Shown here: positions 13,723 to 21,191 of the stretch, in pieces
How the letters are laid out: every line of letters begins with the position of its first letter
Numbering within the stretch: position 1 is the first letter of the stretch
Notes under the pieces: generated by a model
The model's input: only the letters and a program-made list of their open reading frames with translations
Database searches by the model: none
Told to the model about the DNA's origin: nothing
Program-made: the position numbers and the translations under genes
NCBI GenBank assembly: GCA_043814015.1
Contig: JBDRKM010000157.1
Span: 7,010-71,009, forward strand
DNA from: Pseudomonadota bacterium
Lineage (GTDB): Bacteria > Myxococcota_A > UBA796 > JAFGLY01
DNA: 64,000 bases
Direction: 5' to 3'

Positions 13723-14781
13723 TCAGCGTCGCCGCATCCGGCTGCAGCACCCCGCGCATGCCGGGGGCAGCTCACCCGCCGCGCGCAGGAAGCGCCGGTG
13801 CCGGGCGGCGGCCTCGCCGTTCCAGACCTGGCGGAAGGACCGCTCGCGCAGGCTGCCCACCCACACATGGGGGCAGACGCCCAGATCGCCCTGGGCGGAG
13901 ACGATGAAGCGCATCCAGGGGAAGAGACAGTCGTGGGCCGCTGGGTCCCAGATCCCGCGGTAGAGGCCCACGATCTCGGGCTGGGGGCCGTCCGGGTTGA
14001 TCTGGACCGGCACCTCGGGCGAGGCGAGCACCTGCTCCAGGATGGGGGCCAGCTCTTCGGGCGCGATGGGCGTGGGCAGGCTGGCGGAGCCGCAGGAGGA
14101 GGGCTGCGCGGGGTCCATCACGTCGGGCGCGGAGCCGTGCACCGACAGCACCAGCTCGTCGGCGCCCATCTGGCGCGCCAGGGCGGGCAGGGCCGTGAGC
14201 CCGGCGAGTGTCTCCGGCTGGACCACGGCGCGGAGGGCGATGCGTGGGAAGCCGCGGCGGCCGCGCAGGCGCGCCACGTGCTGCACCCCGGCGGCGGCCT
14301 CGGCGAAGGCACCCGCGCGGCCCACCAGGCGGTCGTGGACGGCGGGCGGGCCGTGGATGGAGACCGAGAGGACCGCGAGGCCCGCGGCCGGGCGCAGGGG
14401 GCTGTGATCCAGGAGCCAGCGCGCTTCGGCTGCGTCGAGGCGGGTGGCGTTGGTCTCCAGCACCACGGGCCCGCGGGCCGCGGCGGCCTGGAAGATGTCG
14501 TGGAAGGCCGGGTGCAAGAGGGGCTCCCCGCCGGTCAGCGAGAGGAGGGCCGGGCGCGGCAGCCCGCGGATCAGGGCGACCCACTCCGAGCCGGTCAGCT
14601 CGGGCGCCGAGGGGGGACCCCCGGCGTGCGCCTTGAGGAAGCACATGGCGCAGGCCAGGTTGCAGCGGCGGGTGAGCAGCAGGTAGCCGACCCGCGGGAG
14701 CGGCGCGTGGGTGGCGGGCAGGCGGCGCGCGGCGCGGCCCGCGCCCTCGGACAGGCCGCGGTAGGCCGAGAACAGCTTCAT
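13723..14781 (-). CDS. Radical SAM protein with SPASM/twitch domain
   Basis: CNLACAMC, TGGEPLL, C-terminal CLFPW...GVC...CAGCC. Confidence 0.9.
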   Translation of the reverse strand: MKLFSAYRGLSEGAGRAARRLPATHAPLPRVGYLLLTRRCNLACAMCFLKAHAGGPPSAPELTGSEWVALIRGLPRPALLSLTGGEPLLHPAFHDIFQAAAARGPVVLETNATRLDAAEARWLLDHSPLRPAAGLAVLSVSIHGPPAVHDRLVGRAGAFAEAAAGVQHVARLRGRRGFPRIALRAVVQPETLAGLTALPALARQMGADELVLSVHGSAPDVMDPAQPSSCGSASLPTPIAPEELAPILEQVLASPEVPVQINPDGPQPEIVGLYRGIWDPAAHDCLFPWMRFIVSAQGDLGVCPHVWVGSLRERSFRQVWNGEAAARHRRFLRAAGELPPACAGCCSRMRRR

Positions 14782-15827
14782 CCCGCGCCCTCCGGGCCGT
14801 CGTAGGTGTCGCCCTGGAAGCTGGCGGCCGGGCAGGTGGCGCAGATGGAGATCCCGCGCGGGTCCTGGATGAGCCGGCGGCGGAACTCCCCGTAGCGCGG
14901 CCCGTTCCAGATGGCCGGCAGGCCGCCGGGGTCGTCCAGGTGGCCCATGACGAACTCCCCCTTGGTGTCGGCGCAGCAGGGCACCACCTCGCCGCCGGCC
15001 AGCGCCACCGTGCTCATCCAGGGCCGGTTGCAGGGCACGCGCAGGCGGGTGGGGGTGATGCCGTGGGAGCGGCGCAGATCGGGCCGGCGCGGGGCCAGGC
15101 GCTCCAGGCCCGCGTCGTGGGCCCAGACGAGCTGCCGGAAGCGCACGCGGTCGACCCCCAGCTCCTGCGAGAGCTTCTGGAAGGCGGGCATCTGCGCCTC
15201 GGTGTCCCGGGTGAGCACCATCTTCAGCTCCACCAGGGGCAGGCGGCTGCCCAGGCGGTCGCGTACGGCCAGGAAGCGGGAGACGTTGCGCGTGACCCGC
15301 TCGAAGTCGTCGCTGCCGTGCACCGCGCGGTAGGTGGCGGCGTCAGTGGCGTCCAGCGAGACGGTCATCAGCACCAGGCCCGCGTGGATCAGCTCCTCGG
15401 AGCGTGCCTCGTCCAGCAGCAGGCCGTTGGTGGTGAGCGCGGTGAGCAGCCCGTGCTGGGCTCCCGCCGCCACCATGGCGCCGAGCGCAGGGTGCAGCAG
15501 GGGCTCGCCCCAGTTCCACAGGGAGAGGATCAGCGCGTGGCTGCCCACGTCGGCCAGCAGGCGCCGGTAGAGGTCCATGTCCAGCAGGGTGGCTGGCCTG
15601 GCGTCGGGCAGGACCAGCGCGCACATGGGGCAGCGCAGGTTGCAGGCTGTGGAGGGCTCCACCTGCACCGCCCAGGGCAGTCCGCGCACGTGGGTGCGCA
15701 TGGCGGCCATGGAGGCCGCGGCGGCCGCCTGGTTGGCCAGCCGGCGGGGCTGCCTCAGGGTGCGCGTGGCCGGGCCGAGCAGCGCCCGCAGCTCCCGGGG
15801 GCTGAACTCGGCGTTGAGGAATCGCAT
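14778..15827 (-). CDS. Radical SAM protein with SPASM/twitch domain
   Basis: CNLRCPMC, NWGEPLL, TTNG, CNRPW...PCC...CATC; 4-nt overlap with the next gene. Confidence 0.9.
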   Translation of the reverse strand: MRFLNAEFSPRELRALLGPATRTLRQPRRLANQAAAAASMAAMRTHVRGLPWAVQVEPSTACNLRCPMCALVLPDARPATLLDMDLYRRLLADVGSHALILSLWNWGEPLLHPALGAMVAAGAQHGLLTALTTNGLLLDEARSEELIHAGLVLMTVSLDATDAATYRAVHGSDDFERVTRNVSRFLAVRDRLGSRLPLVELKMVLTRDTEAQMPAFQKLSQELGVDRVRFRQLVWAHDAGLERLAPRRPDLRRSHGITPTRLRVPCNRPWMSTVALAGGEVVPCCADTKGEFVMGHLDDPGGLPAIWNGPRYGEFRRRLIQDPRGISICATCPAASFQGDTYDGPEGAG

Positions 15828-16117
15828 GGGGGCTCCGCGGCCGGCGTGGTGGGGTTCGATATACCTCGAGGCCCCACCGACGCCTACCGACCGCGACGCC
15901 GGCACCTGGTGTCGCGTCCCACCGCCGGTCACCTGCTGAAGCGGCCTTCGCCCCAAGCCCGGCCACCAGCTCGTTGCCCACGCGTGCGCTCGCAGACAAC
16001 CCCAACCAGCCTTTGGGCAGCGAGGTGCCCCGAGAAGGGCGCGGTGGATGGGTACGGCCACCTTTACGCGGCCCCCCGGGCTCCTTATGGTCCCGCGGCC
16101 TCCAGGCTGGAGTCCTC

Positions 16118-17659
16118 TTGGACGACCGCGCCCGCACCACCCTCGCCCTCGTCTCCCTGTACCTGGTGGAGAACCGCGCCGTGCGCTGCCTGGCCGCGTT
16201 CCTGCGCCAGCGTGGCCGCCGCGTGGTGGAGATCTACCTGGGCGACTGGGCCAACAATCGCCTCGACGGCCCCACCCCGGATGACATCGCCCGCCTGCAC
16301 GAGGTGCTGCGGGCCGAAGGCGTCGGGCTGGTGGGCTTCTCGGTGACCGCCTCGGGCTACGAGGCCGTGGCCGCCGGCCTGACCCGCGCCATCCAGCGCG
16401 ATGCCGGGCTCCCCGTGATCTGGGGCGGCCTGCACCCCACCTCGGTCCCCGAGGACTGCCTGCGGTACGCGGACTACGTCTGCGTGGGCGAGGGCGAGGA
16501 GCCGACGCTGGCCCTGCTGCAGGCCCTGGATGCGGGCGGGGCCCCGGGCGAGGTCCCCGGGCTGTGGCGCCGCGGCCCCGCGGGCGTGGTGTCCGGTCCC
16601 CGCCGGCCCCTGGTCGCCGACGCCGACGACCTGCCGGATCCAGACTACGGCAGCCCCGACAAGGTCGCTATCAGCCACGGACGGATCCTGCGGGGCGACC
16701 CCTACGTCGGCTCCCCGCTGGTGGCCCTGCCGGCCTCGCTCGGTTGCCCCTACGCCACCTGCAGCTTCTGCGGCAACACCGTGCTGCGCCGCGTGCTGGC
16801 CCCCGACGGCGGCTTCTACCGCCTGCGCTCCCCCGCGCGGGTCATCGCCGAGATCCACGCCGCCCGCCAGCACTTCCGCCAGGTGCGCGCCGTGCGCTTC
16901 GAGGACGGCGTGTTCGCCTTCCAGCGGGCCTGGGCGCGGGAATTCGCCCCCCTGTACCGCCGCGAGGTGGGCCTGCCCTTCTCCTGCATGGCGGATCCGC
17001 GCGTGGTGGACCCCGAGTGGGTGGCCCTCATGCGCGACGCCGGCCTGACCGAGGTCTTCCTGGGCATCCAGCACACCGAGCGGGTCAGCCGGGAGCTCTA
17101 CACCCGCCCGGTCACCAACGCCCAGATCCGGGCGGCCGGCCAGGCGCTCTCCGCCGCCGGCATCCGCGTCAACTACCAGGTCGTGCTGGACGACCCCGTC
17201 TCCACCGAGCAGGACAAGCGCGATCTGTTGGAGCTGCTCCTCTCCCTGCCGCGGCCCTGCAACCTCTTCCTGTTCTCCATGACCGTCTTCCCGAAGAGCC
17301 CCCTGGCCGACATGCTGCTTGCGCAGGGGCTCATCACCGAGGACGACATCGAGGGCAGGGCCACCCGCATCTTCCAGCAGTGGCGCGTGTCCTTCGCCTG
17401 GCCGCGCACGCCGGAGGAGCGCTTCTGGCTGGCCCTGCTGGTGCTGGCCCCCAAGCGCGGCGTGCCCCGGGCGCTCATGCGCCGCCTCATGGACTCCCGC
17501 CGCCTGCGCCGCGACCCCCGCCCCCTGCTGGCGGCGGCCCAGGCCATGAACACCGTCAAGATGCCGCTGATGGCCCTGGACATGCTGCGCCGGGGCGAGG
17601 TGGACGCCCGCACCTTGAAGCGCTGGATCGGGCGGCCGGGCTCGTGGGTGACGGCTTGA
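16118..17659 (+). CDS. B12-binding radical SAM protein
   Basis: WGGLHPT, VCVGEGE, GCPYATCSFC (CX4CX2C). Probable TTG start after GGAG. Confidence 0.85.
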   Translation: MDDRARTTLALVSLYLVENRAVRCLAAFLRQRGRRVVEIYLGDWANNRLDGPTPDDIARLHEVLRAEGVGLVGFSVTASGYEAVAAGLTRAIQRDAGLPVIWGGLHPTSVPEDCLRYADYVCVGEGEEPTLALLQALDAGGAPGEVPGLWRRGPAGVVSGPRRPLVADADDLPDPDYGSPDKVAISHGRILRGDPYVGSPLVALPASLGCPYATCSFCGNTVLRRVLAPDGGFYRLRSPARVIAEIHAARQHFRQVRAVRFEDGVFAFQRAWAREFAPLYRREVGLPFSCMADPRVVDPEWVALMRDAGLTEVFLGIQHTERVSRELYTRPVTNAQIRAAGQALSAAGIRVNYQVVLDDPVSTEQDKRDLLELLLSLPRPCNLFLFSMTVFPKSPLADMLLAQGLITEDDIEGRATRIFQQWRVSFAWPRTPEERFWLALLVLAPKRGVPRALMRRLMDSRRLRRDPRPLLAAAQAMNTVKMPLMALDMLRRGEVDARTLKRWIGRPGSWVTA

Positions 17660-17662
17660 TGG

Positions 17663-19690
17663 TCAGGGCGCGAGCCCCTCGCCGGTGAGCAGCACCCGCA
17701 CCTCCTCCTCGTCCGGATCGTTGGAGCGGATGACCAGCTCGGCGGAGAACTCGCCCGCCGCGGCGGGGGTGAAGCTGACCGCGATGGTGGCATGCTGGAG
17801 GTGTTCCAGCGCCAGGCTGGTGGCCGAGGTGAGCAGGAACGGGCCCTCCGCCGGCTCGATGGCGATGGAGGAGATCTCCAGCGTCTGCCGGCCCAGGTTG
17901 TCCACGGAGATCTCCGCGGTGTCCGTCTCTCCGGCAGGGCGCGCGCCGAAGGCCCAGCTCCCGGGCTCCACCTCGATGTCCGGCTCCCGCTCGTAGATCC
18001 CCGTGTGGGGTGCCATGTACTCGCACACGCCCCAGCCGCAGGCCTGCACCCCCACCGTGGCCACCAGCCCGAGCACCACGGCGGCGTGCCGGGCCAGGCG
18101 CCCGCTGGGCATCCCACCCCTCGCCACCTGGTCGAGGCCGGTGCGGGCCGCCACGAAGGCGTCGAGACGGGCGCCGAGGGCGCGGTAGACCTCCCAGGCG
18201 CGCTCACGATCCGCGCGCTCCAGGGCGGCGATGGTCTCCACCTCGCGGCGCCAGGCCGGATCGACCGGGGTGGCGCGAGCGGCCAGGTCCACGACGGCAG
18301 CCAGGATGTCGATGGTGGCCGTGTTGACCTCGAGCTGGGCGACGTGGATGTCGGCCACCAGGCGCTGGGCCTCGGGCTCGGGGTAGAAGCGCGCGAGCGT
18401 GGCGGCCAGATGATCCATGCCGATCACGCGCTGCAAGAGGCTCTCGTGGGCCCAGCAGCGCTCCTGCAGGAGGGCCGTGACGATGTCGAAGGCGCGGTCG
18501 AGAGCCGGCTCGGCCATGGGGTAGCCACGGGCCAGGTAGTCCCCGGTGGCGCGGCCCTCGGCCAGCATGCGCCGCTCCAGCGGGGTGCCGGCGTAGATCT
18601 CGGCGCGGGCGAAGCCGGTGGGGTGCTGGGCGAAGCGGCGGAGGAAGTCGATGTCCGCTCGCATGCCGGCCAGCGTTGCGTCGGGGTGGAAGACCATGAG
18701 CCCGAACTGGGAGGAGATGCCCAGGTGGTCGCAGAGGTCGAGGGCTCGCTCCGAGTCGGCCACGGCCTGGCGCCGGCCCAGGGAGGCCAGCCCCTCGGGG
18801 GTGGCGGACTCCACGCCCATGAACAGGCGGATCAGGCCCATGTCCCGGAGCTCCTCGAGGATGCCGCGCTCGGCCTCCTGGGGGCGGCACTTGATCACCA
18901 GGGCGTGCTCGCCCACGCCCCTGGCGCGCAGGCCGTGGCGCAGGGCGGCCAGGCGCGCACGGTTGGCGCGCTGGGACGGCACCAGGAAGTTGTCGTCGTG
19001 GAACACGAACTGGCGAATCCCGCGGCCGTGGTAGAGATCCGCCAGCTCGGCGGCCACGTCGTCGGCCGGCCGCTGGCGGAAGCGCGGCCCGGGGCAGAGG
19101 CGGTGCAGGGTCTGGATGCAGCAGTAGTGGCAGTCGCCCAGGCAGCCGCGGGAGCCGAGCAGGTACGCGGTGGGCACCCCGGCCAGCAGGCGCACGGGGC
19201 CGGCGCGCAGGGGGCGCGGAAAGGCTGTCAGATCCGGCTCGATGGGTCGTACGGCCGTGACGCGGGGCCCCGCGGGGGTGCGCAGCACCAGCCCGGGTAC
19301 GGCGGTCCAGGCGGGCGGGTCCGCGCCCTGGTCTGCCAGCTCCACCAGGCTCTGCTCGCCCTCGTGCAGCACCACCGCGTCGATCTCGGGGTGGTGGGCC
19401 AGCAGCTCCTCGGCCGCACAGGAGGCGTAGTGCCCGCCGGCCACCACGGGCGGCCCGCCCGCCCGCCGCAGGGCGCGGGCCAGGCGCAAGAACTCCCGGG
19501 CGCGGGCCTGAAAGGCCATGGACAGGCCGACCAGATCGGCGCCCGCAGCGCGGCGAAGCACCTCTGGGAGCTGCCCCGCGTGCTCGAACGGCACCTGCTC
19601 GGCGCGGTGCCCCGCCCGCTGCAGGGCGGCGGCCAGATACGCCAGGGAGAGGTTCTCTTCGAGATCGGGGCCGACGAGCAGGACGTACAT
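17663..19690 (-). CDS. B12-binding radical SAM protein fused to a lipoprotein-signal-like segment and choice-of-anchor-D/ASH-type Ig domain
   Basis: ENLSLAYLAAAL, AGGHYAS, HEGE, SRGCLGDCHYC, FHDDNF, GVES; tail LARHAAVVLGLVATVGVQAC-GWGVCEYMAP...ISVDNLG...VSFTP...IRSNDPDE...LTGEG. Confidence 0.85.
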   Translation of the reverse strand: MYVLLVGPDLEENLSLAYLAAALQRAGHRAEQVPFEHAGQLPEVLRRAAGADLVGLSMAFQARAREFLRLARALRRAGGPPVVAGGHYASCAAEELLAHHPEIDAVVLHEGEQSLVELADQGADPPAWTAVPGLVLRTPAGPRVTAVRPIEPDLTAFPRPLRAGPVRLLAGVPTAYLLGSRGCLGDCHYCCIQTLHRLCPGPRFRQRPADDVAAELADLYHGRGIRQFVFHDDNFLVPSQRANRARLAALRHGLRARGVGEHALVIKCRPQEAERGILEELRDMGLIRLFMGVESATPEGLASLGRRQAVADSERALDLCDHLGISSQFGLMVFHPDATLAGMRADIDFLRRFAQHPTGFARAEIYAGTPLERRMLAEGRATGDYLARGYPMAEPALDRAFDIVTALLQERCWAHESLLQRVIGMDHLAATLARFYPEPEAQRLVADIHVAQLEVNTATIDILAAVVDLAARATPVDPAWRREVETIAALERADRERAWEVYRALGARLDAFVAARTGLDQVARGGMPSGRLARHAAVVLGLVATVGVQACGWGVCEYMAPHTGIYEREPDIEVEPGSWAFGARPAGETDTAEISVDNLGRQTLEISSIAIEPAEGPFLLTSATSLALEHLQHATIAVSFTPAAAGEFSAELVIRSNDPDEEEVRVLLTGEGLAP

Positions 19691-20212: not shown

Positions 20213-20285
20213 CCTCCTCCCTGGATGTGATCGCTGGCGCGCGTTGAGAGCACCTTTCATGTGTGCCATCCGCAGGAGGACCACC

Positions 20286-21191
20286 ATGAGGCTGCCGACC
20301 GTCGTGTTCCTCGTCGTGCTCTCAGCCTGCCATCTGGGCGGTGTGGACCCCAACGGCGATCCCGCCGACACCGGCTCCGACTTCGAGGAGTCCAGCATGG
20401 CGGGCGGCCTGGTGCGCCTCCCCGCCGGCTCCTTCACCATGGGCAGCCCCATGGGCGAGACCGGGCGGGACCACGACGAGGTCCGGCACGAGGTCACCCT
20501 CACCCACGACGTCTGGTTCGGGCGCGACGAGGTGAGCCAGGAGATCTTCGAGGACTACGCGGGCTACCTCCCCGCGGGCTTCACCGACTGCGGCGTGGGC
20601 TGCCCCGTGGAGAGCATCACCTGGCACCAGGCGGCCGCCTTCGCCAACGCCGTGTCCGAGGCCGAGGGCCTGGAGCCCTGCTACGCCTGCACCGGCGCCG
20701 AGGTCTGGACGCGCTGTGAGGCCCAGCTCAACCCCTACGCTTGCGCCGGCTTCCGCCTGCCCACCGAGGCCGAGTTCGAGTACGCCGCCCGCGCGGGCCA
20801 GCAAGGCGCCTACCCCGGCGGGGGCCAGCTCACCCAGAACACCTGCGAGCCCGGCGAGCAGCTCTCCAACGGCGACCTCATCGAGGACTTCGCCTGGTAC
20901 TGCGGCAACTCGGAGGAGCGCCCCCACGCCGTGGGCACCCGCCCCGCCAACCGCTGGGGTCTGCACGACACCCTGGGCAACGTCTGGGAGTGGTGCGAGG
21001 ACGGCTACGGCGCCTACGAGGGCGGCGACGTCACCGATCCGGTCGGCCAAGGCATCGGCCTGACCATGGCCCTGCGCGGCGGCTCCTGGGACAGCCTGCC
21101 GCACAAGCTGCGCTTCGCCAACCGTGGCTCCGAGTCCGGCGAGAGCGCCAAGGACACCGTGGGCATGCGGCTGGCGCGGACGGCGGAGTGA
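20286..21191 (+). CDS. Formylglycine-generating enzyme (SUMF1/FGE-sulfatase) fold lipoprotein
   Basis: AGGAGG RBS; LSAC; GSFTMGS, FRLPTEAEFEYAARAG, NRWGLHDTLGNVWEWC, RGGSW, GMRLAR. Confidence 0.9.
   Translation: MRLPTVVFLVVLSACHLGGVDPNGDPADTGSDFEESSMAGGLVRLPAGSFTMGSPMGETGRDHDEVRHEVTLTHDVWFGRDEVSQEIFEDYAGYLPAGFTDCGVGCPVESITWHQAAAFANAVSEAEGLEPCYACTGAEVWTRCEAQLNPYACAGFRLPTEAEFEYAARAGQQGAYPGGGQLTQNTCEPGEQLSNGDLIEDFAWYCGNSEERPHAVGTRPANRWGLHDTLGNVWEWCEDGYGAYEGGDVTDPVGQGIGLTMALRGGSWDSLPHKLRFANRGSESGESAKDTVGMRLARTAE

What the first reader, a model, noticed from the sequence alone, without database searches (positions are those of the whole stretch)
17663..19690. B12 radical SAM enzyme fused in-frame to its own lipoprotein signal, short Cys motif and Ig domain
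Seen: a complete cobalamin-binding radical SAM enzyme runs without a stop into MPSGRLARHAAVVLGLVATVGVQA-C (basic, hydrophobic, lipobox), then GWGVCEYMAP and an extracytoplasmic-type Ig domain. The internal Met (18112) has its own GAGGGG RBS-like site. Established: B12 radical SAM enzymes are cytoplasmic and usually methylate unactivated carbons; enzyme-substrate fusions exist in borosin RiPPs. Inference: the enzyme modifies its own tail (CEYMAP region), which is then exported or cleaved as a modified surface lipoprotein, or the tail is also made separately as a 149-aa protein. I know of no described system with this layout.
Basis: partly seen in the sequence, partly recalled or inferred. Interest (0 to 1): 0.85.

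Follow-up and report, generated by a model that had tools for sequence, protein, structure and literature searches.

The report
Radical enzyme fused to exported lipoprotein
A vitamin-B12-dependent radical enzyme is truly joined, through an export signal buried inside the protein, to a small surface-type protein carrying a short conserved motif that related bacteria encode as the very next gene, so the enzyme is probably fused to its own substrate.

Summary
Window 17663-19690 (-) is one open frame of 675 codons. It reads: class B (B12) radical SAM core, a lipoprotein-signal-like segment (Met527-Cys551), GVCEYMAPH, then a choice-of-anchor-D Ig domain. An independent contig spans the junction without indels.

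It is a family trait. In 185 homologues the core is followed by a positively charged stretch, a ~16-residue hydrophobic stretch and usually a Cys. After that come 1-6 copies of G-[VCI]-x-E-x-A-P-P-P: 316 hits in tails, 0 in cores, about 3 in shuffled tails. The domains beyond it vary.

The motif occurs nowhere else in six genomes checked. No neighbouring gene is conserved.

Tail-less relatives carry, immediately downstream and often overlapping as ATGA, a separate gene for a signal-plus-motif protein. This held in 8 of 9 loci. In 40 metagenome loci, 21 had two or more motifs against 0 in controls.

The gene is therefore a fusion of a conserved enzyme-partner pair. Most likely the enzyme modifies the motif before Sec and lipoprotein export. 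No modification, cleavage or lipidation has been shown.

The closest published analogue is the DAG-RiPPs, which use MNIO enzymes and are not fused. No Pfam or NCBIfam family and no paper found covers this system.

The parts
17663..19690 (-). Whole gene: 675 codons plus stop (stop codon 17663-17665). It encodes a B12 radical SAM enzyme fused to an exported-type tail.
   Evidence: start supported by GGAG upstream and by the N-termini of homologues
19337..19657 (-). Cobalamin-binding domain, residues 12-118.
   Evidence: Pfam PF02310, 57.9 bits, E 1.2e-15
18644..19153 (-). Radical SAM domain, residues 180-349. It includes CxxxCxxC (C183, C187, C190) at 19121-19144.
   Evidence: Pfam PF04055, 56.9 bits; the three Cys are invariant in 120 sequences; Foldseek best hits are TsrM, OxsB, MgmA, AprD4, TokK and CysS, E 4e-20 to 8e-16
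18122..18508 (-). C-terminal helical domain of the enzyme, residues 395-523, with long helices at 439-472 and 478-517.
   Evidence: AF2 model, pLDDT mostly above 85
18117..18122 (-). GAGGGG, a Shine-Dalgarno-like site 4 nt upstream of the internal ATG.
   Evidence: read directly; the Met is not conserved in relatives
18038..18112 (-). Internal lipoprotein-signal-like segment, residues 527-551: MPSGRLARH (positive), AAVVLGLVATVGV (hydrophobic), QAC (lipobox-like, Cys551).
   Evidence: 0 and 2 amino-acid changes against 7 and 10 synonymous changes versus L001 and L002 over codons 530-560
17999..18031 (-). Motif GVCEYMAPHTG, residues 554-564. This is the window clade's divergent copy of the family motif G-[VCI]-x-E-x-A-P-P-P-[LM]-[KD].
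17675..17983 (-). Ig-like beta-sandwich (choice-of-anchor D / HYDIN-VesB type), residues 570-672.
   Evidence: Pfam PF22544 and NCBIfam NF012200 above cut-off; AF2 pLDDT 85-97, all beta

Best explanation
The gene is a natural fusion of a conserved two-gene cassette. The first part is a cytoplasmic class B (cobalamin) radical SAM enzyme. The second is its cognate exported protein.

The exported part starts with a lipoprotein-type signal: positive residues, about 13-16 hydrophobic residues, then a Cys. It carries a short acidic, Ala/Pro-rich motif just behind that Cys (GVCEYMAPH here) and ends in a variable extracytoplasmic domain, here a choice-of-anchor-D Ig fold.

Proposed course of events, all inferred. 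The enzyme domain folds in the cytoplasm. It acts on the motif of its own tail, or on the tail of a second molecule; C-methylation of an unactivated carbon is the first guess for this enzyme class. The internal signal then takes the tail through Sec. Where the lipobox is present, Lgt and LspA lipidate and cut at Cys551. That would release a modified lipoprotein and leave the enzyme behind.

Shown here: the fusion, its conservation, the exclusive link between enzyme and motif, and the split forms.

Inferred: that the motif is the substrate, the chemistry, the order of events, the cleavage and the lipidation.
For: 1. The fusion is real and conserved. All 120 best homologues (46-72% identity, 564-1072 aa) continue past the core.

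2. The hydrophobic stretch looks like a signal, not a transmembrane anchor. In 185 non-identical family proteins its median length is 16 residues. In 168 of 185 the 12 residues before it carry a net charge of +2 or more. In 134 of 185 a Cys sits at a fixed 8-18 residues from its start. A lipobox pattern, recalled from PROSITE PS51257, is met in 120 of 185 at residues 506-620, against 2 hits in all 185 cores.

3. The motif is specific to tails. G..E[YMFA][AMP][APV] gives 316 hits in 51,135 tail residues, 0 in 92,500 core residues, and a mean of 3.2 (max 9) in 200 shuffles. 150 of 185 proteins have at least one copy and 96 have at least two. The domains beyond the motif vary: TonB_C, CarboxypepD_reg, TSP3, ankyrin, LysM, Ig.

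4. The motif is confined to these genes. In the window's own 9.35-Mb genome, convincing copies lie only in this gene and in one paralogue on C303, which is also a B12-rSAM fusion with 4 copies. In 5 acidobacterial genomes, all 7 sites coding CCEYAA lie inside the fusion gene, and the reversed-pattern control gave 0.

5. No neighbouring gene is conserved across 80 loci, nor with the relatives at 71% and 63% identity. The unit is self-contained.

6. Split forms exist. Of 30 loci from the same phylum, 20 are fused, 9 tail-less and 1 cut. In 8 of the 9 tail-less loci, the next gene on the same strand encodes a protein with a positive stretch, a hydrophobic stretch, a Cys and then a motif such as GAVDPAPPPLE or GFGVVDPLP. 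In 5 of those 8 the start overlaps the enzyme's stop as ATGA. In 40 tail-less metagenome loci, an ORF of at least 60 aa starts at -60..+200 of the stop in all 40. Of these, 31 carry at least one motif (controls 4/33, 4/28, 5/29) and 21 carry at least two (controls 0/33, 0/28, 0/29).

7. The signal-plus-motif stretch is the most constrained part of the protein in the window's clade.

8. There is precedent for cytoplasmic modification followed by Sec or lipoprotein export: bufferins (passages of PMC11626156) and DAG-RiPPs (abstract and passages of PMC13056109).
Against: No chemical evidence exists for any modification. AF2 leaves residues 536-568 unplaced, with pLDDT below 50, so the model gives no sign that the tail docks in the active site.

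The window's own motif is a degenerate, single copy. The position held by Pro in 304 of 313 family copies is His here.

The motif lies on the exported side of the signal. The enzyme must therefore act before or during export, which for a fused protein is unproven.

35 of 185 family proteins lack the strict motif and have only looser variants; the ankyrin/TSP3 clade has at most SEVDA.

9 of 40 tail-less metagenome loci, including the clade of P0277 itself, show no motif by my pattern in the downstream protein, although that protein there is still a lipoprotein-like one. 1 of 9 phylum loci (L116) has no downstream partner.

Using up a 525-residue cofactor enzyme for each exported protein would be costly.
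Confidence: 0.55

Rival explanations
1. Membrane-anchored enzyme. The hydrophobic segment is an uncleaved signal-anchor that tethers a cytoplasmic radical SAM enzyme to the inner membrane. The enzyme acts on a lipid or another membrane substrate. The tail is a periplasmic anchoring or sensing domain, and the motif is only a Pro-rich spacer, as in TonB.
For: Many homologues carry TonB_C, LysM or CarboxypepD_reg tails. The charge distribution fits N-in, C-out. The weak best NCBIfam hits are lipid enzymes: HpnR at 79 bits and the ladderane-lipid rSAM at 61 bits, both far below their cut-offs. 51 of 185 proteins have no Cys at the end of the hydrophobic stretch.
Against: Tail-less relatives have no anchor at all, yet keep the signal-plus-motif protein as a separate adjacent gene. 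The hydrophobic stretch is short, with a median of 16 residues. A mere spacer would not keep an invariant Glu and Pro across phyla, and would not be confined to these genes. One clade has a motif-bearing partner without a clear export signal.
Confidence: 0.15
2. A partner but not a substrate. The motif protein binds or regulates the enzyme, or is escorted by it. The motif could be a docking or export-timing tag, or a pseudo-substrate. The enzyme's true substrate would lie elsewhere.
For: In the E[VLFI]LP[AST]P...VVDP[LMIV]PP class of split partners, one motif copy lies before the hydrophobic segment, where a leader or docking element would sit. AF2 shows no docking in the active site.
Against: No other conserved gene that could supply a substrate lies nearby. 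Multiple tandem copies, up to 6, fit repeated modification sites better than a single docking tag.
Confidence: 0.15
3. Two products in this organism. The internal ATG 18112, with its GAGGGG site, starts an independent 149-aa lipoprotein precursor. The read-through fusion would be minor or incidental.
For: From Met527 the product has a K/R in its first residues and Cys at position 25, as a lipoprotein precursor would. A Shine-Dalgarno-like site lies 4 nt upstream. Split forms with ATGA overlap show the ancestral state was two coupled genes.
Against: There is no stop between enzyme and tail in the window or in 185 relatives. The Met is absent in the relatives at 71% and 63% identity. A suitably placed Met is no commoner than chance, 24 of 120. 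G-rich hexamers are common in DNA of 72% G+C. No stand-alone homologue of the tail turned up among proteins of 81-261 aa: only 1 weak hit, covering the Ig domain alone.
Confidence: 0.1
4. Artefact. A sequencing or assembly frameshift joined two genes.
For: The window comes from a fragmented assembly of 507 contigs. Split relatives differ from fused ones by one frame at an ATGA overlap.
Against: The same fusion appears in all 120 best database homologues and in 80 genome loci from several phyla. A separately assembled contig spans the junction without indels. Purifying selection runs across the junction.
Confidence: 0.01

Closest known systems
DAG-RiPPs: RiPP-lipoprotein hybrids such as lipo-DybAH and lipo-NedABC (PMC13056109, PNAS 2026; abstract and passages read)
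   Same: A cytoplasmic maturase modifies a short conserved motif in a precursor that carries a lipoprotein (SPII) signal. The product then passes through Lgt, LspA and Lnt. The gene clusters are minimal, enzyme plus precursor, and some substrates are whole proteins over 30 kDa.
   Different: The enzyme there is an MNIO and the motif is a C-terminal CPxCGxG. Enzyme and precursor are separate proteins. The main text has 0 occurrences of 'radical SAM', 'cobalamin' or 'fused', and its genome mining was run on MNIO neighbourhoods, with AIPs as a preliminary note. Here the enzyme is a B12 radical SAM, the motif is acidic and Ala/Pro-rich and often repeated, and in most members the signal is internal to a fusion protein. 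Supplementary tables could not be read.
Bufferins: MNIO-modified small proteins with Sec signal peptides (PMC11626156; abstract and passages read)
   Same: Modification takes place in the cytoplasm, followed by export through the general Sec pathway. The substrate is a small folded protein rather than a short peptide.
   Different: Bufferins use an SPI-type signal, an MNIO enzyme with a DUF2063 partner, and Cys-to-thiooxazole chemistry. They are not fused.
Borosins (OphMA type), an autocatalytic enzyme-core fusion.
   Same: Enzyme and substrate sequence lie in one polypeptide, with the substrate at the C-terminal end.
   Different: The borosin enzyme is a SAM-dependent alpha-N-methyltransferase. 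There is no export signal between enzyme and core, and no radical chemistry.
Class B radical SAM enzymes that act on peptides or proteins, including MgmA, TsrM and proteusin/bottromycin C-methyltransferases. The structures come; the substrate chemistry is recalled.
   Same: The domain order is the same: B12-binding, radical SAM, then a C-terminal helical domain. Foldseek gives E 3.7e-20 to TsrM (6wtf) and 2.9e-17 to MgmA (9ccb).
   Different: Sequence identity is only 13-22%. No NCBIfam equivalog reaches its cut-off. None of these enzymes is fused to a signal-bearing substrate.
CUAEP/CCAEP-tail radical SAM (seleno)protein, NCBIfam NF040546 (mentioned as uncharacterised in bioRxiv 10.1101/2022.07.06.499078; passage read)
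   Same: It is a B12-type radical SAM protein with a short conserved Cys-containing tail motif. Acidobacterial members of the present family have GCCEYAA.
   Different: P0001 scores 60 bits against a cut-off of 500. That tail sits at the extreme C-terminus with no signal segment or exported domain. Its function is also unknown.
Anaerobic sulfatase-maturating enzymes acting on Sec-exported sulfatases (recalled from memory; no paper read)
   Same: A cytoplasmic radical SAM enzyme modifies a short motif of a protein that is afterwards exported.
   Different: Those are SPASM-type enzymes without B12. Their motif is C/S-x-P/A-x-R, which is absent here, and they are not fused.

Membership tests
Class B (cobalamin-binding) radical SAM enzymes | N-terminal B12-binding (Rossmann-like) domain | tested here: met
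   PF02310 at residues 12-118, 57.9 bits against a cut-off of 32.1
Class B (cobalamin-binding) radical SAM enzymes | Radical SAM core with a CxxxCxxC cluster motif | tested here: met
   PF04055 at residues 180-349, 56.9 bits; C183, C187 and C190 invariant in 120 sequences
Class B (cobalamin-binding) radical SAM enzymes | Overall fold like solved class B enzymes | tested here: met
   AF2 mean pLDDT 90.5; Foldseek hits to TsrM, OxsB, MgmA, TokK and CysS at E 4e-20 to 8e-16
Class B (cobalamin-binding) radical SAM enzymes | Binds cobalamin and cleaves SAM; methyl transfer or other radical chemistry | not testable with these tools
   needs biochemistry
Bacterial lipoprotein precursor (SPII signal) | Positive n-region, hydrophobic h-region and a lipobox ending in Cys | tested here: met
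   RLARH / AAVVLGLVATVGV / QAC; the pattern {DERK}(6)-[LIVMFWSTAG](2)-[LIVMFYSTAGCQ]-[AGS]-C, recalled from PROSITE PS51257, is met in the window protein and in 120 of 185 relatives
Bacterial lipoprotein precursor (SPII signal) | Signal at the N-terminus of the polypeptide | tested here: not met
   the segment starts at residue 527 of 675; in split relatives it is N-terminal, after an extension of 0-45 aa
Bacterial lipoprotein precursor (SPII signal) | Diacylglyceryl transfer by Lgt and cleavage by LspA | not testable with these tools
   no signal-peptide predictor or experiment was available
RiPP-lipoprotein hybrids (DAG-RiPPs, PMC13056109) | Precursor with an SPII signal encoded beside, and modified by, a cytoplasmic maturase | tested here: inconclusive
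   adjacency or fusion and the signal are shown; modification is not shown
RiPP-lipoprotein hybrids (DAG-RiPPs, PMC13056109) | MNIO maturase and a CPxCGxG or EGKCG motif | tested here: not met
   the enzyme is a B12 radical SAM; the motif is G-x-x-E-x-A-P-P-P
Enzyme-substrate fusions of the borosin kind | Catalytic domain and core sequence in one polypeptide | tested here: inconclusive
   the motif lies in the same polypeptide; that it is the substrate is inferred
Enzyme-substrate fusions of the borosin kind | SAM-dependent alpha-N-methyltransferase fold | tested here: not met
   no such Pfam hit; the fold is radical SAM
[quoted passage not shown] | Score above the curated cut-off | tested here: not met
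   60.1 bits against a cut-off of 500
Choice-of-anchor D domain (NF012200) | Score above the curated cut-off | tested here: met
   50.4 bits (whole protein) and 54.3 bits (tail) against a cut-off of 45
Anaerobic sulfatase-maturating enzyme with its sulfatase | SPASM domain in the enzyme; C/S-x-P/A-x-R motif in the substrate | tested here: not met
   no SPASM hit in P0001; no such motif in the tail

The most novel reading that the evidence does not exclude
A single polypeptide acts as a complete maturation-and-export module. The B12 radical SAM domain installs a radical modification, such as C-methylation, on the acidic Ala/Pro motif(s) of its own tail. The tail is then threaded through Sec by an internal lipoprotein signal and cut off at the lipobox Cys, giving a modified, lipid-anchored surface protein.

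That would be the first radical SAM enzyme fused to its own substrate. It would also be the first family-wide use of an internal SPII signal in bacteria. Hundreds of members in Myxococcota, Acidobacteriota and other phyla would share it, together with unfused two-gene versions.
Probability: 0.35. Interest if true: 0.9.

Novelty: new variant of a known kind. Interest (0 to 1): 0.8.

Why it matters
If the enzyme does modify the motif, this is a large, uncurated family of protein-modifying B12 radical SAM enzymes. The representative search gave 562 clusters (at 50% identity) at E <= 1e-30. The family is present in 37 of 401 sampled genomes of the window's phylum, and also in Acidobacteriota and Spirochaetota.

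The substrates are exported envelope proteins, not small antibiotics. That would extend the newly described link between RiPP-type maturation and the lipoprotein pathway to radical SAM chemistry.

The family also gives a natural fusion-and-split series, in which enzyme and substrate are identified by genome architecture alone. A new post-translational modification of bacterial surface proteins then becomes directly testable by co-expressing one or two genes.

An internal lipoprotein signal that works 527 residues into a protein would also interest people who study Sec targeting and LspA.

Tried and rejected
- **Complex prediction**. Core 1-525 with SAM and 4Fe-4S against tail 526-580 scored 0.02 against a mark of 0.32. 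The verdict was no answer, so it counts neither for nor against binding.

- **The look-up of sequencing runs**. No RNA holder was listed, so nothing can be said about expression or an internal transcript start. X2 and X3 hold small or no shares.

- **Stand-alone tails.** A search for shorter proteins with an acidobacterial tail (P0012 residues 525-844) gave 178 hits. The 12 I read all begin inside the fused protein's sequence, either in the helical domain or within the hydrophobic stretch, so they are fragments or internal-start gene calls. A search with the window's own tail (81-261 aa) gave 1 weak hit to the Ig domain only.

- **Conserved neighbours.** All-against-all comparison of 3949 ORFs from 81 loci found only the gene itself and its antisense shadows. 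The next real cluster occurs in 7 loci. The neighbouring B12-rSAM, SPASM-rSAM and FGE-sulfatase genes of the window are not conserved beside homologues.

- **Curated families.** No Pfam or NCBIfam model matches 14 split-form partner proteins. The protein atlas gave only generic radical SAM clusters, with scores of 0.88 or less.

- **Literature.** Five full-text searches were run. The terms included radical SAM, cobalamin, TonB, lipoprotein, lipobox, proline-rich, precursor, fused, signal peptide, and CUAEP/CCAEP. None found a paper on this fusion or cassette. Only open-access papers and bioRxiv are covered, and supplements were closed.

- **First automatic classifier for downstream partners** (13 of 40). 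It was too strict. Reading the loci showed clear misses, so it was replaced by the motif count with three controls.

- **Rejected ideas.** A Tat signal is rejected because there is no twin-arginine consensus. A ribosome-arrest peptide is rejected because tandem copies spaced 14 aa apart, and copies at the C-terminus, do not fit. A sulfatase-type FGly motif is rejected because there is no C/S-x-P-x-R.
Full report
**1. What is in the sequence**

On the - strand an open frame runs from 19792 to 17663. Translation from ATG 19690 gives 675 residues and a stop. That ATG has a GGAG 6 nt upstream, and homologues start at the same residue.

Pfam finds a B12-binding domain (12-118), a Radical_SAM domain (180-349) and an Ig-like HYDIN/VesB domain (570-670). 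NCBIfam calls the last a choice-of-anchor D domain, above its cut-off. No NCBIfam equivalog for any characterised radical SAM enzyme comes near its cut-off. The best is HpnR at 79 bits against 650, and the CUAEP-tail family scores 60 against 500.

Between enzyme and Ig domain lies MPSGRLARHAAVVLGLVATVGVQAC-GWGVCEYMAPH. Met527 is at nt 18112, Cys551 at 18040-18038 and the motif at 17999-18031. GAGGGG lies 4 nt before the internal ATG.

An AF2 model built on 120 homologues is confident for the enzyme and the Ig domain (mean pLDDT 90.5). Residues 536-568 are left unplaced, with pLDDT below 50. Foldseek places the enzyme with TsrM, OxsB, MgmA, AprD4, TokK and CysS.

A separately assembled public contig lies on 17663-19004 without any indel. 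It may come from the window's own source sample.

**2. The layout is a family trait, not an accident**

A search of 5.8 billion proteins gave 869 hits among the 8000 candidates scored. All 120 best (46-72% identity over the core, 564-1072 aa) go on past the enzyme core. Their C-terminal domains differ: TonB_C with CarboxypepD_reg, TSP3 repeats, ankyrin, LysM and Ig.

I pooled these with the complete proteins from 80 genome loci and the paralogue from the window's own genome, giving 185 non-identical proteins.
- The uncharged hydrophobic stretch after the core has a median length of 16 residues.
- In 168 of 185, the 12 residues before it carry a net charge of +2 or more.
- In 134 of 185, a Cys sits 8-18 residues (mostly 12-15) from its start.
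- A lipobox pattern, recalled from PROSITE PS51257, is met in 120 of 185 at residues 506-620. It is met only twice in all the cores.

This is the shape of a lipoprotein signal peptide, not of a 20-residue transmembrane helix.

**3. A short motif follows the signal**

The motif G-[VCI]-[CAS]-E-[AYM]-A-[PA]-P-P-[LMY]-[KD] occurs 316 times in 51,135 tail residues. It never occurs in 92,500 core residues, and it occurs 3.2 times on average (max 9) in shuffled tails.
- 150 of 185 proteins have at least one copy and 96 have at least two. The maximum is 6.
- Copies sit just behind the Cys, between domains, in tandem at 14-residue spacing, or within 25 residues of the C-terminus (20 of 185).
- The 35 proteins without the strict motif have looser forms, such as MSEMAPPP, IMSEIDAKPLD, HMCEMAPPP and NEYAPPP, or in one clade only SEVDA.
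- The window's copy, GVCEYMAPH, is a divergent form shared with its three nearest relatives.

In that clade the signal-plus-motif stretch is the most constrained part of the protein. Over codons 530-560 there are 0 and 2 amino-acid changes but 7 and 10 synonymous changes against the relatives at 71% and 63% identity. The Ig tail shows 68 and 66 amino-acid changes in 115 codons, and the core shows 127 and 178 in 525. An ordinary signal peptide or membrane anchor is not expected to be held so tightly.

**4. The motif belongs to this enzyme only**

A six-frame scan of the window's 9.35-Mb genome found the motif in context in just two open frames. One is the window gene. The other is on contig C303, which is also a B12 radical SAM core followed by a signal-like segment and four copies of THMCEMAPPP. 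These are the only two members of the enzyme family in that genome; other B12 enzymes there are about 30% identical.

In five acidobacterial genomes of 5.3-7.0 Mb, all 7 sites coding CCEYAA fall inside the fusion gene. The reversed pattern matched nowhere.

No neighbouring gene is conserved across 81 loci. The window shares none with its closest relatives either. The second B12 enzyme next door is a different family, 31% identical over 327 residues.

**5. Split forms**

A HMMER search of 1.84 billion cluster representatives with the core alone gave 562 hits at E <= 1e-30. Of the best 150:
- 95 have a tail with a hydrophobic segment, and 70 of those carry a broad form of the motif;
- 38 are tail-less;
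- 17 are fragments.

On a tree the tail-less forms make up their own clades.

In 401 sampled genomes of the window's phylum, 37 carry a family member. Of the 30 loci returned, 20 are fused, 9 tail-less and 1 cut. In 8 of the 9 tail-less loci, the next gene on the same strand encodes a protein of 74-256 residues. It has a positive stretch, a hydrophobic stretch and a Cys, followed by a motif. Examples are ...GLSTC-SGIGAVDPAPPPLE...VVMTGC-TGFGVVDPLPMD and ...VSTAC-GCDPVPHP. In 5 of the 8 its ATG overlaps the enzyme's stop codon as ATGA. The ninth locus, L116, has a lipoprotein upstream instead and no motif.

A second, independent set came from metagenome contigs. It contained 27 fused loci, 40 tail-less with at least 400 nt downstream, 6 tail-less without flank and 7 cut. 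In all 40, an ORF of at least 60 residues starts within -60..+200 nt of the stop.
- 31 of 40 hold at least one motif in their first 200 residues. Three kinds of control ORF gave 4/33, 4/28 and 5/29.
- 21 of 40 hold at least two motifs, against 0/33, 0/28 and 0/29 in the controls.

The 9 without a motif by this pattern include the clade of the query itself. There the downstream protein is still a lipoprotein-like one (MATTGRGLTIALATAGLIAC...).

One clade has a partner with 2-4 copies of [VIMQ]EPAH and no clear lipobox. This suggests the motif goes with the enzyme rather than with export.

None of 14 partner proteins matches any Pfam or NCBIfam family.

**6. Reading**

The window gene is a fusion of a conserved enzyme-partner cassette. 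The partner half is equivalent to a lipoprotein precursor. Three observations point the same way: the motif co-occurs only with this enzyme, it repeats within tails, and no other conserved gene is present. Together they make it most likely that the motif is what the enzyme acts on.

Cytoplasmic modification followed by Sec or lipoprotein export has published precedents. These are the bufferins (PMC11626156) and the DAG-RiPPs (PMC13056109). So a motif on the exported side is not an obstacle in principle.

The following remain inference: the chemistry (methylation is the usual reaction of this class, but not the only one), whether the enzyme acts in cis or on a second molecule, whether the internal signal is cleaved by LspA, and what the modified lipoprotein does.

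The main rival is a membrane-anchored enzyme with a periplasmic domain. It is weakened by the anchor-less split forms and the short hydrophobic stretch, but it is not excluded for the Cys-less members. A separate product from Met527 may exist in this organism, but it is not a family feature.

**7. Known or new**

Five full-text searches found no description of this fusion or cassette. They cover open-access papers and bioRxiv only, and supplements were closed.

It concerns MNIO enzymes, and its main text does not mention radical SAM, cobalamin or fused forms.

Two earlier notes of this scan describe the same kind of fusion in other genomes. They agree with this report but are not independent evidence.

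I therefore class the finding as a new variant of a known kind. It is a radical SAM (class B) counterpart of RiPP-lipoprotein hybrids. Its added and so far undescribed feature is that enzyme and precursor are usually one polypeptide, joined through an internal lipoprotein-type signal.

Noticed in passing
window 14778-16061 (-) and 15974-17659 (+): A radical SAM/SPASM protein and a second, unrelated B12-binding radical SAM protein (31% identity to the finding's enzyme over 327 aa) lie head to head right beside the finding. The second one converges on the finding's stop, with 3 nt between the two stop codons. They are not conserved next to homologues. They may form a separate maturation cluster.
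   Followed up: partly
window 20244-21191 (+): An FGE-sulfatase (SUMF1-like) domain protein with a lipoprotein-like N-terminus lies upstream of the finding on the other strand (Pfam 132 bits). It is not conserved beside homologues.
   Followed up: no
G000 contig C303, 1580-4297 (+) (L081): This is a paralogue in the same genome, 905 aa. It has a B12 radical SAM core (43% identity), a signal-like segment ending in ...LAAPAC, and four copies of THMCEMAPPP separated by domains of about 110 residues that match no Pfam family. The last copy lies 12 residues from the C-terminus.
   Followed up: partly
L133, L135, L145, L156, L158, L160, L161 (metagenome loci): A tail-less clade of the enzyme has a downstream protein of 263-305 aa with 2-4 copies of [VIMQ]EPAH (for example DWVEPAHP and VQEPAHWFD) and no clear lipobox. 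It appears to be a non-exported variant of the partner. It matches no Pfam or NCBIfam family.
   Followed up: partly
L103, L104, L110, L142, L168, L173, L179, L190, L194 and others: Split-form partners of one class carry a first motif copy, E[VLFI]LP[AST]P, 20-35 residues before the hydrophobic segment. A second copy, VVDP[LMIV]PP, follows the Cys. The first copy would stay on the cytoplasmic side and could act as a docking or leader element.
   Followed up: no
L092, L093, L095, L107, L111-L113, L115 (same-phylum loci): Fused members of sister clades have tails made almost wholly of tandem [MV]V[VA]DP[PL]PPD or DPLPPP units, up to about ten copies. Some end in ...DPLPPPTMKK. These look like long polyproline spacers, or like multi-site substrates.
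   Followed up: no
P0012 and about 50 of the 120 best homologues (Acidobacteriota): The commonest tail in the database is CarboxypepD_reg, then a LysM-like stretch, then a TonB C-terminal domain. Public annotations therefore call these radical SAM fusions 'TonB family protein' or 'anaerobic Mg-protoporphyrin cyclase'.
   Followed up: partly
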